The notes: generated from the letters alone by a model not told the origin. DNA of 32,000 nucleotides from Candidatus Electronema halotolerans (GCA_942493095.1 OW818675.1:240001-272000); one strand, 5' to 3'; positions 3,686-7,257 are shown, counted from the first letter of the stretch. Program-made: numbers and translations.

Positions 3686-3871
3686 TTTCTCTATGTTCAA
3701 GTCCCTGGATGATTACATTTATATTCTTTGACCAATAGGGGTTACGCCCGGCAAAGATCAAGCAAAAGATCACCGAAGTGAAATTGGGGTGGAAGCTCGA
3801 GCTGACCTTGCAGACCAAACTTTTCGTCCGCCTCCTCTTTCTGAACCTTCATCTCTGCGAAGAAAAAAATA

Positions 3872-4966
3872 ATGAACAATTTCCGATTTGCAACGGCTGA
3901 AGACTTTAATCCCGCTGAACTGGGAAAATCACTCTGCATGGATTTTGATGCTGTCCGCAGCGCATTTGCCGAAGAGCCGGATCAGAGAGTCAACGGCGCG
4001 TTGAGCGGCTATATTTACGACATGCCGCAATTTCCTGATGATCCGGTCAGAGGCGGCATTCATTATGCACGGTATGTTGAGTTGCCTGATTCGCTGATTC
4101 CTCAGAGGCAGCCGCCGTTGCTGCGCTCTTTTGCCGAAGAAATCCAAGAAACCGTGCCAGAGGCGGCAACTTTCTTTGATTTGGGGCCGGGACCGGAATG
4201 GTCGGTGCGAAAAAACACTGTGCCGGCACTCAAGATGCTGCAACCTGCTGTGTATGTGCCGGTTGATCTGGAGCCTGAGTTTACAGAAGAAGCATGCAAG
4301 GTGGTCAGCAGCGAGTTCCCTGAAATGAATGTGAACAATCTTGTCAGTAATTTTCATGCCGAGCCGCTGTCTGGCGCGGCAACCGAAAATGCGCTTGTCT
4401 GGTATCCAGGTTCGACCTTGGGCAATCTGCCTTCGCTGCCGGAAACCGCTTTTGCTGAGAACCGATTTGTCATGGAGCATCTTGCCCTGCTGCGTCAAGG
4501 TGCGGCAGAAGAGCAGGCCCGTTATCTGGTGCTTCTGATGGACAGAAAAAAAGAGGACATTCAGTCCATGCTCGACTTGTATGCCTCAGACGATGCGGTT
4601 GGCTGTTTTCGCAGCATTCTCTTTAAGCTGAAGCGGGACCTTCAGGCAGAAGATTTTGATCCTGCGGCATTTGCCTATGAACCGCTTTGGAATGAGCAGA
4701 CCAGCGCGGTGGAGCACACCTTCACCGCTGCTGCAAATCAGCTCTTCAAGATACATGACTGTTTCACCAATGCTTCTGCAACAGTAAGAGTTTCAGCAGG
4801 CGAACGCTATGTCTTAGCCAATTCTATGAAGCCGAGCTGCGATGACATGCAAGCCATGCTATCTTGTTCAGGCTGGGAGCCGCTGCGGTCAGCAGAAGAT
4901 GCGGACCGTCAGTTTCATATTCATCTTGCGCAGGCTGGTACCGCACAAATCATATCGGATAGCTGA
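3872..4966 (+). CDS. EgtD-like (Methyltransf_33 family) SAM-dependent amino-acid N-methyltransferase, divergent
   Basis: 364 aa, colinear by eye with mycobacterial EgtD:
- FFDLGPGPEWSVRKNT vs LVELGSGTSEKT
- YVPVDLEPEF vs FIPFDVDAGV
- YPGSTLGNL vs FLGSTIGNL
- the DFDPAAFAYEPLWN block vs DFDLDAFEHVAKWN

The start is uncertain: the SD before 3872 is weak and there is an alternative ATG at 3938. Confidence 0.68.
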   Translation: MNNFRFATAEDFNPAELGKSLCMDFDAVRSAFAEEPDQRVNGALSGYIYDMPQFPDDPVRGGIHYARYVELPDSLIPQRQPPLLRSFAEEIQETVPEAATFFDLGPGPEWSVRKNTVPALKMLQPAVYVPVDLEPEFTEEACKVVSSEFPEMNVNNLVSNFHAEPLSGAATENALVWYPGSTLGNLPSLPETAFAENRFVMEHLALLRQGAAEEQARYLVLLMDRKKEDIQSMLDLYASDDAVGCFRSILFKLKRDLQAEDFDPAAFAYEPLWNEQTSAVEHTFTAAANQLFKIHDCFTNASATVRVSAGERYVLANSMKPSCDDMQAMLSCSGWEPLRSAEDADRQFHIHLAQAGTAQIISDS

Positions 4967-4967
4967 C

Positions 4968-5723
4968 ATGCTGGAACTGCGTAATATCTCCAAAACCTAC
5001 GGCCAGACGCAGGCTCTGCGCTCCATCAACTTGTCTGTTCCTGCGGGCAAGACCACCGTATTTCTGGGGCCGAGCGGCTGCGGCAAATCCACTCTGATCC
5101 GCATCATGAACGGGCTTATTCAAGCCGATTCAGGTGCGGCTGTTTATTTTGAGGGCGTGCAAGTCACGGAAGCAAACGCGCTCCAGCTCCGCCACAAAAT
5201 GGGCTATGTCATTCAGGAGGGCGGCTTGTTCCCGCATCTGACTGCCAGACAAAACATTGCATTGATGGCAAAGCATCTGGACTGGGCAAAGGATCGTATT
5301 GAAGAACGGATAACAGAGCTGGTCCGGCTGACCCAGTTTCCTGAGCAAGGGTTGGACCGTTTTCCGGCAGAGCTGTCCGGCGGGCAGCGGCAGCGGGTCA
5401 GTTTGATGCGCGCTCTGATGCTTGACCCTGCCTTGCTGCTCTTGGACGAGCCGCTCGGCGCGCTTGATCCCATGATTCGCTCTGAACTGCAAAGCGAGCT
5501 GCGCCAAATATTCCAGACCTTGGGCAAGACTGTGGTGCTTGTCACGCATGATATTGGCGAGGCTGATTATCTCGGCGACCTGCTGGTGCTGATGCGCGAT
5601 GGCCAGATCCTACAGCAGGGCCTGTTGCGCGATATGGTCAAAAATCCGGCAGAACCGTTTGTCAGTCAGTTCATCAATGCGCAGCGCAGTCCTGATGTGT
5701 TGCAACAGAAGGAGGGAGCATGA
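4968..5723 (+). CDS. ABC transporter ATP-binding protein, osmoprotectant/quaternary-amine (OpuC/ProV-like) type, no CBS tail
   Basis: Walker A GPSGCGKST, signature LSGGQRQRV, Walker B LLLLDEP, H-loop VTHD. I moved the start from the track ORF (4842) to the ATG at 4968, one nt after the upstream stop. At ~251 aa it is too short to carry the tandem CBS domains of OpuAA/OpuCA. Confidence 0.9.
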   Translation: MLELRNISKTYGQTQALRSINLSVPAGKTTVFLGPSGCGKSTLIRIMNGLIQADSGAAVYFEGVQVTEANALQLRHKMGYVIQEGGLFPHLTARQNIALMAKHLDWAKDRIEERITELVRLTQFPEQGLDRFPAELSGGQRQRVSLMRALMLDPALLLLDEPLGALDPMIRSELQSELRQIFQTLGKTVVLVTHDIGEADYLGDLLVLMRDGQILQQGLLRDMVKNPAEPFVSQFINAQRSPDVLQQKEGA

Positions 5724-7222
5724 AAACATTATGGCATTATTTCTGCGCATTATTTCTGCTGGCAGTCCTGCTGCCCACGGTTCCGGCGCAGGCTGAGGCA
5801 GAGATCACTGTCGCTTCAAAAAATTTCACAGAAAGTGTCATTCTCGGCGAAATAATCACCCAAGTGCTGCGCTCCGCCGGAGTTAAGGCGGAACATCGGC
5901 CTGAGCTGGGCGGCACCCAAGTGCTGTGGAACGCCCTGCTGCGCGGCGAAATAGACAGTTATCCTGACTACACCGGCACTTTGCGGCAGGAAATGTTCAC
6001 AGGGCAGCAGATCAACAATTTTGCTGATTTGCGTCAACGGCTGGCAGAGAAAAACATCCTGACCACAGAGCCGCTCGGCTTTAATAACACGTATGCCCTT
6101 GCCATGAAAAAAGCAAAGGCAAAGCAGCTCGGCATCCGCACCATTTCTGATCTGCGCAAGTTTCCTGATCTGGCCTTTGGTTTCAGCAATGAGTTCATGG
6201 ACCGCAATGACGGCTGGCAGAATCTGCGCACCCATTACCAACTGCCACAGACTGATGTCAAAGGACTGAATCACGATCTGGCCTATTTGGGCTTAGATAA
6301 CGGCTCGATTGACGTGACAGACGGGTATTCAACCGATGCGGAAATCGTCTATTATGATTTGCAAGTGCTGAAGGATGACCGGCAGTATTTTCCTGAATAT
6401 CAGGCGGTGATTCTCTATCGGGCAGGATTGCGGAAACGCGCTCCGCAAGCAGCGGCGGCCCTGCAAAAGCTGGCTGGCAGCATTTCTGAGGCGGAAATGG
6501 TGAAAATGAATGCCCGCGCCAAACTGGACAAGGTGTCAGCCAGCCAAGTTGCCTCTGATTTTCTCAAGGAAAGATTCGCGCTGCAAACAGAAGTGACCGA
6601 GGAAACAGTCTTTTCCCGTCTCTGGCAGCACACGGTTGAGCATCTGATTTTGACCTGCTGTTCGCTGCTGGCCGCAGTGGCTGTCTCCATCCCCCTTGGC
6701 ATCTGCGCGGCCAAATATGAACGGCTGGGGCAGATTGTTTTAGGCGTGACAGGCATTATTCAGACCATTCCATCTTTAGCCCTGTTAGTTTTCATGATTC
6801 CGTTCTTGGGCATTGGCAATGCTCCGGCCATTGCGGCCCTGTTTCTTTACAGTCTGCTGCCAGTAGTCCGCAACACCTACACCGGCCTGCATGGCATTTC
6901 CCCGCCGCTCATTGAATCAGCCAAGGCTTTGGGCCTGTCGCCTTGGGCGCGTTTGCGGCTGATTGAACTGCCCTTGGCCTCGCGCTCCATTCTGGCGGGC
7001 ATCAAAATTTCTACGGTGCTCAACATCGGCTTTGCCACCTTGGGTGCGTTGATCGGCGCAGGCGGCTATGGGCAGCCGATTCTGACCGGAATTCGTTTGG
7101 ATGACACCGGCCTGATCTTGCAGGGAGCCATTCCGGCTGCGGTACTGGCTCTGCTGGCGCAGGGCATGTTTGAGCTGCTGGAACGGGCGGTGGTGCCAAA
7201 AGGACTGCGGCTGACAGCGTGA
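5720..7222 (+). CDS. Fused periplasmic substrate-binding domain (OpuAC/OpuBC family) + ABC permease
   Basis: 500 aa. A signal peptide (cleavage near AQA-EA) is followed by a ~270 aa glycine-betaine/choline-type binding domain (ASKNFTES..ILGEI, YPDYTGT). Then comes a permease domain with the IPSLALL..PVVRNTYTGL EAA-type loop. ATGA overlap with the ATPase gene; SD AAGGAGGGA. Confidence 0.88.
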   Translation: MKTLWHYFCALFLLAVLLPTVPAQAEAEITVASKNFTESVILGEIITQVLRSAGVKAEHRPELGGTQVLWNALLRGEIDSYPDYTGTLRQEMFTGQQINNFADLRQRLAEKNILTTEPLGFNNTYALAMKKAKAKQLGIRTISDLRKFPDLAFGFSNEFMDRNDGWQNLRTHYQLPQTDVKGLNHDLAYLGLDNGSIDVTDGYSTDAEIVYYDLQVLKDDRQYFPEYQAVILYRAGLRKRAPQAAAALQKLAGSISEAEMVKMNARAKLDKVSASQVASDFLKERFALQTEVTEETVFSRLWQHTVEHLILTCCSLLAAVAVSIPLGICAAKYERLGQIVLGVTGIIQTIPSLALLVFMIPFLGIGNAPAIAALFLYSLLPVVRNTYTGLHGISPPLIESAKALGLSPWARLRLIELPLASRSILAGIKISTVLNIGFATLGALIGAGGYGQPILTGIRLDDTGLILQGAIPAAVLALLAQGMFELLERAVVPKGLRLTA

Positions 7223-7257
7223 GATTGCGCTTTTGCGTAACGTATTCTGCTGAAACT

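What the first reader, a model, noticed from the sequence alone, without database searches (positions are those of the whole stretch)
3686..7257. Stand-alone EgtD-like methyltransferase coupled to a betaine-type ABC transporter: possible amino-acid-betaine (hercynine-like) module without sulfur-insertion genes
EgtD/EanA-family enzymes trimethylate the alpha-amine of histidine to hercynine. In known ergothioneine pathways they are accompanied by EgtB/EgtC/EgtE or EanB. None of those is present here.

The next two genes instead encode an OpuC/ProU-class ABC system, the class that includes the ergothioneine importer EgtUV. Two features of it stand out:
- The ATPase lacks CBS domains.
- The binding domain is fused N-terminally to the permease, whereas I recall the order permease-then-binding-domain for OpuABC, ProWX and EgtU.

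The region aligning with EgtD's substrate-contacting TEVSCKF segment differs here (LANSMKP). The methyl acceptor may therefore not be histidine.
Basis: partly seen in the sequence, partly recalled or inferred. Interest (0 to 1): 0.65.

Follow-up and report, generated by a model that had tools for sequence, protein, structure and literature searches.

The report
Divergent EgtD-like methyltransferase plus betaine importer
A mobile three-gene operon in a cable-bacterium relative pairs an unusual cousin of the ergothioneine enzyme EgtD with an ordinary betaine uptake pump, and it most likely makes and recaptures a still-unknown non-histidine betaine, possibly for salt tolerance.

Summary
Window 3872-7222 encodes three tightly packed genes: a PF10017 methyltransferase, a 251-aa ABC ATPase without CBS domains, and a signal peptide-OpuAC-permease fusion.

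The methyltransferase has the EgtD fold (pLDDT 91.5, TM 0.69-0.80) but is not an EgtD orthologue. It scores 94 bits against the 291-bit cutoff. Its small, isolated clade has replaced four residues near-invariant in the family (Y56S, Y57L, E62Q, K92N) and the histidine-specific T213, M252 and E282 (now A, H, A). The alpha-amine residues G161/N166 and the carboxylate ligands Y206/S284 are kept.

The binding domain's closest solved relative is the ergothioneine binder EgtUC. However, it lacks both ergothioneine determinants (G244, F293), and its pocket matches the consensus of at least 118 full-length relatives. The reversed domain order is therefore common, not special.

The trio moves as a unit, at 86% DNA identity in a different genomic context, with dN/dS about 0.1. 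Here it sits inside a yitJ-metK-ahcY methyl-cycle operon and is bracketed by a duplicated yitJ 3' end. Outside this narrow lineage the methyltransferase and the transporter occur separately.

Best reading: synthesis plus uptake of a non-histidine carboxylate betaine, probably for osmoadaptation. The substrate is unknown.

The parts
3838..7214 (+). Three-gene cassette, as delimited by homology to a second copy in a different genomic context.
   Evidence: blastn of the window against L014/L015 gives one block, 3838-7214, at 86.2% identity. The flanks are unrelated, with folE2 and Rieske/cytochrome b upstream in L014. All three genes have dN/dS 0.08-0.12 and similar dS of 0.51-0.61.
3872..4966 (+). 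Divergent EgtD-family (PF10017) SAM-dependent N-methyltransferase, 364 aa.
   Evidence: - Pfam score 105 bits.
- TIGR03438 EgtD equivalog score only 94 bits against a cutoff of 290.9.
- AlphaFold2 model at pLDDT 91.5. The best PDB folds are EgtD 4UY5/4PIM/4PIP at TM 0.69-0.80 and about 20% identity.
- Active-site map.
4968..5723 (+). ABC transporter ATPase, 251 aa, nucleotide-binding domain only (no CBS domains).
   Evidence: PF00005 at 120.8 bits over residues 17-163. TIGR01186 proV matches residues 10-243 at 238 bits, below its cutoff. Homologues in L014, L031 and L016 are 245-251 aa.
5720..7222 (+). Fusion protein of 500 aa: signal peptide (aa 1-26), OpuAC-type binding domain (aa 27 to about 290), then a five-helix permease (aa about 300-500).
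   Evidence: - PF04069 at residues 28-284 (210.7 bits) and PF00528 at residues 324-491.
- Best solved relatives are S. pneumoniae EgtUC 7TXK/9EGH at 162-166 bits.
- Ligand-site map.
- Hydropathy spans.
7250..7585 (+). Pseudogene remnant of the 3' end of the yitJ-like gene. It forms the right-hand copy of the direct repeat bracketing the cassette.
   Evidence: It is 84-90% identical to 3333-3668. It carries a TGG to TAG change, a 15-nt deletion and an 8-nt deletion.
3333..3668 (+). Left-hand copy of the repeat, inside the intact yitJ-like gene.
1802..3685 (+). Bifunctional homocysteine S-methyltransferase/MTHFR (yitJ-like). It is the first gene of the methyl-cycle operon that hosts the cassette.
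   Evidence: NF006396 at 650.6 bits, above the cutoff of 453.
7603..10565 (+). Low-GC (37-44%) inserted block: methyltransferase of about 302-328 aa, glyoxalase-fold protein, orphan DctP-type binding protein, and a 245-aa methyltransferase.
   Evidence: Composition. Pfam and NCBIfam give only generic class I methyltransferase hits, none reaching a curated cutoff and none matching GSMT/SDMT. The same block is present in L031/L032.
10675..13230 (+). metK (10675-11838) and ahcY (11881-13230), the SAM synthetase and SAH hydrolase that complete the methyl cycle.
   Evidence: Pfam S-AdoMet_synt N/M/C domains, and AdoHcyase at 465 bits.

Best explanation
A horizontally acquired three-gene operon for an onium-type solute.

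**Proposed mechanism**
- Gene 1 is an active SAM-dependent N-methyltransferase of the EgtD fold. It probably methylates the alpha-amino group of a carboxylate-bearing amine other than histidine, processively up to the betaine.
- Genes 2 and 3 form a complete type I ABC importer. It consists of a homodimeric CBS-less ATPase and a homodimeric permease, each permease carrying a periplasmic binding domain tethered at its N-terminus.
- The binding domain has an aromatic cage and a Lys/Thr/Arg carboxylate clamp, so it binds carboxylate betaines. The pump therefore takes up, or recaptures after leakage, the same or similar betaines.
- The operon sits in the yitJ-metK-ahcY operon, which regenerates the three SAM molecules consumed per betaine.
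- The likely role is compatible-solute accumulation (osmoadaptation) in a sediment Desulfobulbaceae of the cable-bacteria clade.

**Shown**
- Fold, family membership and the residue changes.
- Completeness of the importer.
- Cassette mobility and purifying selection.
- The genomic position.

**Inferred**
- Catalytic activity.
- Trimethylation.
- The nature of the substrate.
- That enzyme product and transported ligand coincide.
- The osmotic role.
For: **Enzyme**
- PF10017 membership and the EgtD fold.
- SAM-site G86, G88, D113 and F142 are conserved, as is K286.
- G161 and N166 are conserved. These position the alpha-amine and allow sequential methylation (roles from PMC9103826).
- The carboxylate ligands Y206 and S284 are conserved (roles from PMC8593015).
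- The clade shows 65% mean column identity from cyanobacteria to Desulfobacterota, and dN/dS is 0.11. It is under selection and not decaying.

**Not histidine**
- T213A, M252H and E282A hold across the clade. The PDB holds an engineered M252V/E282A EgtD bound to tryptophan (4PIP).
- The EgtD equivalog score is 94 against a cutoff of 291.

**Importer**
- The cage residues N339, Y341, Y419 and Y443 are conserved; the fifth cage position, F293, is Y.
- The carboxylate clamp K242, T296 and R379 is conserved, as are E375 and D381 (roles from PMC9732360).

**Coupling**
- The gap between genes 1 and 2 is 1 nt, and genes 2 and 3 overlap by 4 nt.
- The same trio occurs in another context at 86% identity, with matching dS.

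**Osmotic theme**
- Clade members lie next to mechanosensitive channels in Ca. Achromatium palustre (L022) and in L010.

**Methyl-cycle location**
-.
Against: - No substrate or product is known for any member of the clade, and nothing was found in the held literature.
- Y56, one of three carboxylate ligands, is Ser, and its neighbour Y57 is Leu. The acceptor may therefore not carry a simple alpha-carboxylate.
- The link between methyltransferase and transporter is confined to one narrow lineage. Most clade members are stand-alone in unrelated contexts.
- The binding pocket equals the consensus of relatives that lack the methyltransferase. The pump shows no sign of adaptation to a special product.
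- The other methyltransferases packed into the same operon suggest the site may simply be a hotspot for methyltransferase genes.
Confidence: 0.45

Rival explanations
1. Functionally unrelated neighbours. The ABC system is a generic glycine betaine or proline betaine osmoprotectant importer. The methyltransferase serves another purpose, such as a specialised metabolite or N-terminal methylation of a peptide. The two travel together only through recent linkage.
For: - The binding pocket is identical to the family consensus.
- The transporter occurs without the methyltransferase in Ca. Parabeggiatoa.
- The methyltransferase clade occurs without the transporter in about 18 other loci.
- In two lineages the methyltransferase is followed by a B12-radical SAM plus a SPASM radical SAM pair typical of peptide maturation.
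Against: - Spacing of 1 nt and a 4-nt overlap indicate co-translation.
- The homology block with the second context begins 34 nt before the methyltransferase start codon and ends 8 nt before the permease stop codon, so the three genes moved as one unit.
- All three genes have equal dS and strong purifying selection.
- 55-73% identity across phyla in unrelated contexts argues for a ubiquitous small-molecule substrate rather than a cluster-specific peptide.
Confidence: 0.25
2. A true but divergent hercynine synthase (EgtD/EanA function), paired with a hercynine or ergothioneine importer. Sulfur-insertion genes would be elsewhere in the genome or absent.
For: - NCBI annotation of clade members reads 'L-histidine N(alpha)-methyltransferase'.
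- The binding domain's best solved relative is EgtUC.
- E375, T275, K242 and R379, which contact ergothioneine, are conserved.
Against: - The TIGR03438 score is 94 against a cutoff of 290.9.
- The histidine-contacting T213, E282 and M252 are replaced. About 20 of the more distant relatives, at 23-31% identity, keep the full F-Y-Y-E-K-T-M-E signature.
- The ergothioneine determinants G244 and F293 are F and Y. G244F alone costs 100-fold in affinity (PMC9732360).
- E375 is also used by the glycine betaine binder AfProX (PMC9732360).
- No EgtB or EanB domain lies near any clade member with a gene table.
Confidence: 0.08
3. The enzyme methylates an amine without an alpha-carboxylate, for example an amino alcohol, a sulfonate or phosphonate amine, or an amino sugar. 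The product would be a choline-like or other onium compound.
For: - The family-invariant Y56/Y57 pair at the carboxylate site is Ser/Leu in the whole clade.
- Neighbours in some loci include a sulfotransferase (L012), a DegT-type aminotransferase fused to a methyltransferase (L010), and an aldehyde dehydrogenase (L006).
Against: - Y206 and S284, the other two carboxylate ligands, are invariant in the clade.
- The linked binding domain keeps a full carboxylate clamp.
- No neighbour recurs beyond related genomes.
Confidence: 0.15

Closest known systems
EgtD / EanA (L-histidine N-alpha-methyltransferase, PF10017; M. smegmatis structures 4PIM/4PIO/4UY6)
   Same: - Same fold (TM 0.69-0.80) and the same two-domain architecture.
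- Same SAM-binding motif.
- G161/N166 amine site and Y206/S284/K286 are retained.
- A similar sequential N-methylation chemistry is therefore expected.
   Different: - Only about 20% identity, at 94 bits against a 291-bit equivalog cutoff.
- Y56S, Y57L, E62Q and K92N replace residues at least 86% conserved in 141 other family members.
- The histidine pocket residues T213, M252 and E282 are A, H and A.
- No EgtB, EgtC, EgtE or EanB partner is nearby.
Engineered EgtD M252V/E282A (tryptophan methyltransferase, PDB 4PIP) and the natural aromatic amino-acid betaine synthases it models
   Same: Ala at position 282, and loss of the histidine-specific contacts.
   Different: - His rather than Val at position 252.
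- The additional changes at the Y56/Y57/E62/K92 core are not present in the engineered enzyme.
- The substrate is untested.
EgtUV (EgtUA/EgtUBC) ergothioneine ABC importer of S. pneumoniae, L. monocytogenes BilE and H. pylori
   Same: - Cluster F-III binding domain; closest solved relative at 166 bits.
- Four of the five cage residues (N339, Y341, Y419, Y443) are conserved; the fifth, F293, is Y here.
- K242/T296/R379 carboxylate clamp, and E375/D381.
- Two-gene layout with a short ATPase.
- Binding domain covalently fused to the permease.
   Different: - The domain order is reversed: signal peptide, binding domain, then permease.
- G244 is F and F293 is Y, so both ergothioneine-specificity determinants are absent. 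I243 is N.
- The host is Gram-negative.
- The system is linked to a biosynthetic methyltransferase.
OpuA / ProU / OpuC osmoregulated betaine importers
   Same: OpuAC-type binding domain, a BPD_transp_1 permease and a ProV-like ATPase. A betaine-type ligand is expected.
   Different: The ATPase lacks the tandem CBS domains used by OpuA for ionic-strength and c-di-AMP gating (PMC7673798). Any osmotic control must therefore be transcriptional or absent. The binding domain is fused at the N-terminus.
Glycine betaine synthesis loci (GSMT/SDMT) clustered with metK/ahcY in halophiles
   Same: The same logic, with SAM-consuming N-methyltransferases placed next to SAM-regeneration genes. The GSMT/SDMT-metK/ahcY arrangement itself rests on my own knowledge of those loci and was not retrieved here.
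   Different: A different methyltransferase family. A single enzyme is presumed to do all three methylations. The neighbouring class I methyltransferases do not match GSMT/SDMT models (26 bits against a cutoff of 350).

Membership tests
Pfam PF10017 Methyltransf_33 (EgtD/EasF superfamily) | HMM score above the gathering threshold over the full domain. | tested here: met
   105.2 bits against a threshold of 23. Residues 59-354 match profile positions 24-303 of 304.
Pfam PF10017 Methyltransf_33 (EgtD/EasF superfamily) | EgtD-type two-domain fold. | tested here: met
   AlphaFold2 model at pLDDT 91.5, pTM 0.89. The top 15 Foldseek hits are all EgtD (E 8e-20, TM up to 0.80). The next class reaches only E 1e-10.
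Pfam PF10017 Methyltransf_33 (EgtD/EasF superfamily) | Family-wide conserved core residues Y56, Y57, E62 and K92 (M. smegmatis numbering). | tested here: not met
   These are S, L, Q and N in the window, and they hold in 29-36 of 36 clade members. In 141 other family members the counts are Y 134, Y 128, E 122 and K 134.
EgtD/EanA orthologue (TIGR03438, L-histidine N-alpha-methyltransferase) | Equivalog HMM score at or above the curated cutoff. | tested here: not met
   94 bits against a cutoff of 290.9.
EgtD/EanA orthologue (TIGR03438, L-histidine N-alpha-methyltransferase) | Imidazole-pocket residues T213, M252 and E282. | tested here: not met
   A242, H282 and A316 in the window, invariant or nearly so across the clade. 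About 20 distant relatives with the full T/M/E signature serve as a positive control.
EgtD/EanA orthologue (TIGR03438, L-histidine N-alpha-methyltransferase) | Alpha-amine site G161/N166 and carboxylate ligands Y56/Y206/S284. | tested here: inconclusive
   G180, N185, Y237 and S318 are conserved. Y56 is replaced by S74. Residue roles are taken from PMC8593015 and PMC9103826.
EgtD/EanA orthologue (TIGR03438, L-histidine N-alpha-methyltransferase) | Genomic association with EgtB/EgtC/EgtE or EanB. | tested here: not met
   None in the 32-kb window, and none in the gene tables of 16 related loci.
EgtD/EanA orthologue (TIGR03438, L-histidine N-alpha-methyltransferase) | Histidine to hercynine activity. 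| not testable with these tools
   Requires an enzyme assay.
EgtU ergothioneine-specific ABC importer | Binding domain homologous to EgtUC, with the aromatic pentagon and the K242/T296/R379/E375 contacts. | tested here: inconclusive
   166 bits to 9O5F/7TXK. K34, T87, N123, Y125, E158, R162, Y203 and Y227 are conserved, but the fifth pentagon residue F293 is Y84. Four of five cage residues and all four polar contacts are therefore kept.
EgtU ergothioneine-specific ABC importer | Ergothioneine-specificity determinants G244 and the Tyr-to-Phe switch F293 (PMC9732360). | tested here: not met
   F36 and Y84 in the window. All 118 close relatives have F or H, and Y, at these positions.
EgtU ergothioneine-specific ABC importer | Permease N-terminal and binding domain C-terminal (EgtUBC; PMC12922746). 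| tested here: not met
   OpuAC lies at residues 28-284 and the permease at 324-491.
Opu/OTCN-type type I ABC importer with a cluster F-III binding domain | ABC_tran ATPase plus BPD_transp_1 permease plus OpuAC binding domain, all encoded together. | tested here: met
   The same two-gene layout is found in L014, L016 and L031.
OpuA/ProU-type osmosensing importer | Tandem CBS domains at the ATPase C-terminus. | tested here: not met
   The ATPase is 251 aa with no domain beyond ABC_tran. The proV model (363 positions) is matched only to position 237.

The most novel reading that the evidence does not exclude
The clade is a new kind of betaine synthase. It has rebuilt the otherwise invariant Tyr-Tyr/Glu/Lys core of the EgtD family to trimethylate a substrate not yet linked to this family. 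The product would be an unassigned compatible solute shared by sediment and mat dwellers: cable-bacteria relatives, Achromatium, Thiotrichaceae, Desulfobacter and marine filamentous cyanobacteria. In this host, the mobile synthase-plus-importer cassette would provide an organic-osmolyte strategy. This would bear on a published statement that cable bacteria genomes encode no osmolyte biosynthesis pathway (PMC10030654).
Probability: 0.3. Interest if true: 0.7.

Novelty: new variant of a known kind. Interest (0 to 1): 0.45.

Why it matters
**Annotation.** EgtD-family enzymes are annotated wholesale as histidine methyltransferases, and clade members carry that name in NCBI. This clade shows the name is wrong for at least one conserved lineage, which has even replaced the family's near-invariant core residues. 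Identifying its product would add a betaine biosynthetic route.

**Marine and sediment chemistry.** Identifying the product could explain some orphan betaines seen in marine and sediment metabolomes.

**Cable bacteria.** The published view is that no osmolyte biosynthesis pathway and only a partial betaine transporter exist, favouring a salt-in strategy (PMC10030654). Here the transporter is complete, because the binding domain and permease are fused. It is also coupled to a candidate synthase, which makes that view directly testable.

**Genome dynamics.** The locus illustrates a methyl-cycle operon acting as a landing site for methyltransferase genes.

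Tried and rejected
- **Riboswitches and RNA elements.** An Rfam gathering scan of the whole window found only a tRNA at 22220-22293. No SAM or SAH riboswitch lies near the operon.
- **Promoter and terminator scan of 3300-7900.** No convincing promoter lies in the 186-nt gap before the methyltransferase and no terminator follows yitJ, so read-through from yitJ is possible but unproven.
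- **GSMT/SDMT glycine betaine pathway in the neighbouring methyltransferases.** Rejected. The best score is 26 bits against a cutoff of 350, and all hits are generic class I.
- **A universal conserved partner of the clade.** All-against-all comparison of ORFs within 6 kb in 21 loci found none. Only an outer-membrane efflux protein and a DegT aminotransferase recur, each in three loci, two of which are related.
- **Literature on this clade, EgtD homologues as osmolyte synthases, and homoserine betaine.** Nothing relevant is held. One search was wasted on histone 'trimethyltransferase' hits. The OpuF paper (PMC6182910) is not held.
- **Similarity of the window's own radical SAM gene (14945-16804) to the radical SAM pair next to clade members.** None was found.
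- **Naming the host genome.** The source names are masked. Only the RpoD-based placement is available.

Full report
**What is there**

The interval holds three co-oriented genes packed without room for internal promoters.
- 3872-4966 encodes 364 aa.
- 4968-5723 encodes 251 aa and starts one base after the preceding TGA.
- 5720-7222 encodes 500 aa and begins with an ATGA overlap.

Pfam assigns them as follows.
- Methyltransf_33/PF10017 at 105 bits.
- ABC_tran only.
- OpuAC at residues 28-284, followed by BPD_transp_1 at residues 324-491.

The third protein begins with a signal-like hydrophobic segment ending in PAQA, and it has five hydrophobic spans after residue 310. The binding domain is therefore periplasmic and tethered to the first membrane helix.

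**The host and the locus**

RpoD from the window is 75% identical to Ca. Electronema sp. TJ and 63-69% identical to Ca. Electrothrix species. The window belongs to a 3.2-Mb NCBI contig. The host is a Desulfobulbaceae of the cable-bacteria clade, and its exact identity is masked.

The trio lies inside a methyl-cycle operon:
- a yitJ-like bifunctional homocysteine S-methyltransferase/MTHFR at 1802-3685 (650 bits, above the cutoff);
- metK at 10675-11838;
- ahcY at 11881-13230.

Two blocks separate yitJ from metK. The first is the trio. The second is a low-GC (37-44%) block at about 7603-10565. It encodes two generic class I methyltransferases, a glyoxalase-fold protein and an orphan DctP-type binding protein.

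**The trio is a mobile unit**

Immediately after the permease gene lies a decayed copy of the last 330 nt or so of yitJ, at 7250-7585. It is 84-90% identical to 3333-3668 and carries a TGG to TAG change and two deletions. The cassette is thus bracketed by a direct repeat of the yitJ 3' end. This is what either of two events would leave:
- single-crossover integration of a circle carrying a yitJ fragment;
- replacement by a donor yitJ-plus-cassette segment with an illegitimate right join.

In metagenomic contigs L014/L015 the same three genes occur downstream of folE2 and Rieske/cytochrome b genes. DNA homology to the window runs from 3838 to 7214 at 86% and stops there. Between the two copies all three genes have dN/dS of 0.08-0.12 and dS of 0.51-0.61. 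They have diverged together under purifying selection.

Sister strains (L031/L032, 96-98% identical) carry the same locus.

**The methyltransferase**

It is a genuine EgtD-fold protein. The AlphaFold2 model has pLDDT 91.5, and its 15 best PDB matches are all EgtD (TM 0.69-0.80, about 20% identity). Other class I methyltransferases trail by nine orders of magnitude in E-value.

It is not an EgtD orthologue, scoring 94 bits against the TIGR03438 cutoff of 290.9. It belongs to a small, isolated clade.
- There are 36 database clusters at 47% identity or more.
- In a 1.84-billion-protein representative library only six hits reach E below 1e-30. After the clade itself, identity drops to 38% and then to 31% or less.
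- Members come from Ca. Achromatium palustre (73%), a Thiotrichaceae MAG, Algicola, Psychrosphaera, a coral-associated Desulfobacter MAG and many marine filamentous cyanobacteria. This patchy sediment and mat distribution is consistent with horizontal transfer.

I mapped the active site onto M. smegmatis EgtD in an alignment with 141 other family members.

Residues kept:
- SAM-site G86, G88, D113 and F142;
- G161 and N166, which hold the alpha-amine and permit sequential methylation (PMC9103826);
- the carboxylate ligands Y206 and S284 (PMC8593015);
- K286.

Residues changed throughout the clade:
- Y56 to S, Y57 to L, E62 to Q and K92 to N. Each is conserved in 122-134 of 141 other members, including the nearest outgroups.
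- The imidazole-pocket residues T213 to A, M252 to H and E282 to A.

About 20 distant relatives carry the full F-Y-Y-E-K-T-M-E signature and serve as an internal control for true EgtDs. The PDB holds an engineered M252V/E282A EgtD bound to tryptophan (4PIP). Ala at position 282 is therefore known to abolish histidine preference.

My inference is an active, probably processive N-methyltransferase whose acceptor is not histidine. The acceptor probably still has an alpha-amine. The loss of Y56/Y57 leaves the carboxylate end open to question.

**The transporter**

The binding domain's best solved relatives are the ergothioneine-binding EgtUC domains of S. pneumoniae (162-166 bits). Listeria BilEB, an entry deposited as 'Osmoprotection protein' (8DP6/8DP7), Archaeoglobus ProX and OpuBC/OpuCC follow.

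I mapped the ligand contacts described in PMC9732360.

Conserved:
- four of the five cage residues (N339, Y341, Y419, Y443);
- the carboxylate clamp K242/T296/R379;
- E375, D381 and T275.

Not conserved:
- the two determinants the authors single out for ergothioneine specificity, G244 and the Tyr-to-Phe switch at the fifth cage position, F293. These are F and Y here. G244F alone lowers affinity 100-fold in their hands.
- I243, which is N here.

The same pocket, K-x-F/H-G-T-Y-T-N-Y-E-R-Y-Y, is the consensus of 118 full-length relatives of 480-560 aa at 58-98% identity. These come from Thiotrichaceae, Scalindua, Nitrospiraceae, Acidobacteriota, myxobacteria and others.

Three conclusions follow.
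- The reversed (binding domain first) architecture is widespread and already annotated generically.
- The ligand is most likely a carboxylate betaine.
- The pump shows no adaptation specific to the cassette. Position 243 even differs between the two cassette copies.

The partner ATPases of relatives are also 245-251 aa, so the lack of CBS domains is the norm for this subfamily. It does mean that the ionic-strength and c-di-AMP gating described for OpuA (PMC7673798) cannot operate here.

**How far does the coupling go?**

Outside the window's near relatives and L014/L015, clade methyltransferases are stand-alone in unrelated settings.
- Between fabH and fabD in cyanobacterium ESFC-1.
- Next to a 1243-aa mechanosensitive channel in Achromatium.
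- Two genes from an MscS channel, and overlapping a DegT-aminotransferase/methyltransferase fusion, in L010.
- Followed by a B12-radical SAM plus SPASM radical SAM pair in Desulfobacter and in L009. The pairs are 73-80% identical to each other.
- Next to a sulfotransferase in L012.

No partner recurs generally. The nearest transporter outside the cassette lineage, from Ca. Parabeggiatoa at 70% identity, has no methyltransferase. The link between methyltransferase and pump is therefore recent and lineage-restricted, though real.

**Most likely mechanism**

OpuAC-type domains bind fully methylated onium groups by cation-pi contacts. The pump is therefore expected to carry a product-like betaine rather than an unmethylated precursor.

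The simplest model is synthesis plus uptake, or recapture, of a carboxylate betaine. SAM would be supplied by the surrounding yitJ-metK-ahcY genes. This parallels known recapture systems for self-made compatible solutes and the clustering of glycine betaine methyltransferases with metK/ahcY. That comparison rests on my own knowledge and was not tested here.

The mechanosensitive-channel neighbours in two other lineages fit an osmotic role. I put this model at 0.45.

The main rival, at 0.25, is that the pump is a generic betaine importer merely linked to a methyltransferase with another role. A hercynine or ergothioneine function is unlikely (0.08).

**Novelty and significance**

This is a new variant of known kinds, not a new class. 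The most interesting element is the methyltransferase clade with its rebuilt family core and unknown product.

In context, a study of closed cable-bacteria genomes states that none encodes an osmolyte biosynthesis pathway. It also reports that only one subunit of a betaine transporter is detectable, and it argues for a salt-in strategy (PMC10030654). A fused binding-domain-permease gene would register as a single subunit. The system here is in fact complete and sits beside a candidate betaine synthase. That makes the question experimentally approachable.

Noticed in passing
window 7250-7585 and 3333-3668: A decayed duplicate of the last 330 nt or so of the yitJ-like gene lies directly after the cassette. 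It carries an internal TAG and deletions of 15 nt and 8 nt. The result is a 3.9-kb-spaced direct repeat, the footprint of the cassette's integration.
   Followed up: yes
L031 4166-4198 / 5137-5169 (sister strain; corresponds to window 5671-5726): In sister strains an extra low-GC (41%) 215-aa class I methyltransferase is inserted between the ATPase and permease genes. It is flanked by a 33-56 bp direct repeat of the ATPase 3' end, which includes the ribosome-binding site and start codon of the next gene. Both insertions at this locus thus duplicate the 3' end of the upstream gene, and the mechanism is unexplained. This methyltransferase is 33% identical to the methyltransferase domain fused to a DegT aminotransferase next to a clade member in L010.
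   Followed up: partly
window 7603-10565: A low-GC island (37-44%, against 52-63% in the flanks) between the yitJ remnant and metK. It encodes two uncharacterised class I methyltransferases, a glyoxalase-fold protein and an orphan DctP-type TRAP binding protein with no membrane partners. None reaches any curated family cutoff. The methyl-cycle operon seems to collect methyltransferase genes.
   Followed up: partly
L004 11323-13948 and L009 3826-6454: In a Desulfobacter MAG and an unrelated contig, the clade methyltransferase is followed by a conserved pair: a B12-binding radical SAM enzyme (511-512 aa) and a SPASM radical SAM enzyme (367 aa). The pairs are 73-80% identical between loci. This suggests a further modification pathway, or a peptide-maturation context, for some clade members.
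   Followed up: partly
L022 6086-9817 (Ca. Achromatium palustre) and L010 548-1666: Mechanosensitive channel genes lie immediately upstream of, or two genes from, clade methyltransferases in two unrelated lineages: a 1243-aa MscK-like channel and a 372-aa MscS-like channel.
   Followed up: partly
window 14945-16804 (- strand): A 619-aa radical SAM/SPASM protein resembling peptide maturases (DynA, anSME, cyclophane-forming enzymes at 60-79 bits, all below cutoff). No precursor peptide was searched for nearby.
   Followed up: no
window 1716-3796 versus L031 130-2212: The intact yitJ gene is only 90% identical between the window and its sister strain, while the adjacent cassette is 98.5% identical and the downstream block 96%. 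This mosaic indicates recent recombination at the locus.
   Followed up: no
window 11845-11918: Short perfect and near-perfect palindromes (28 nt at 100%, 34 nt at 88%) lie in the metK-ahcY intergenic region. They could be a terminator, attenuator or regulatory hairpin. Rfam found no known family there.
   Followed up: no
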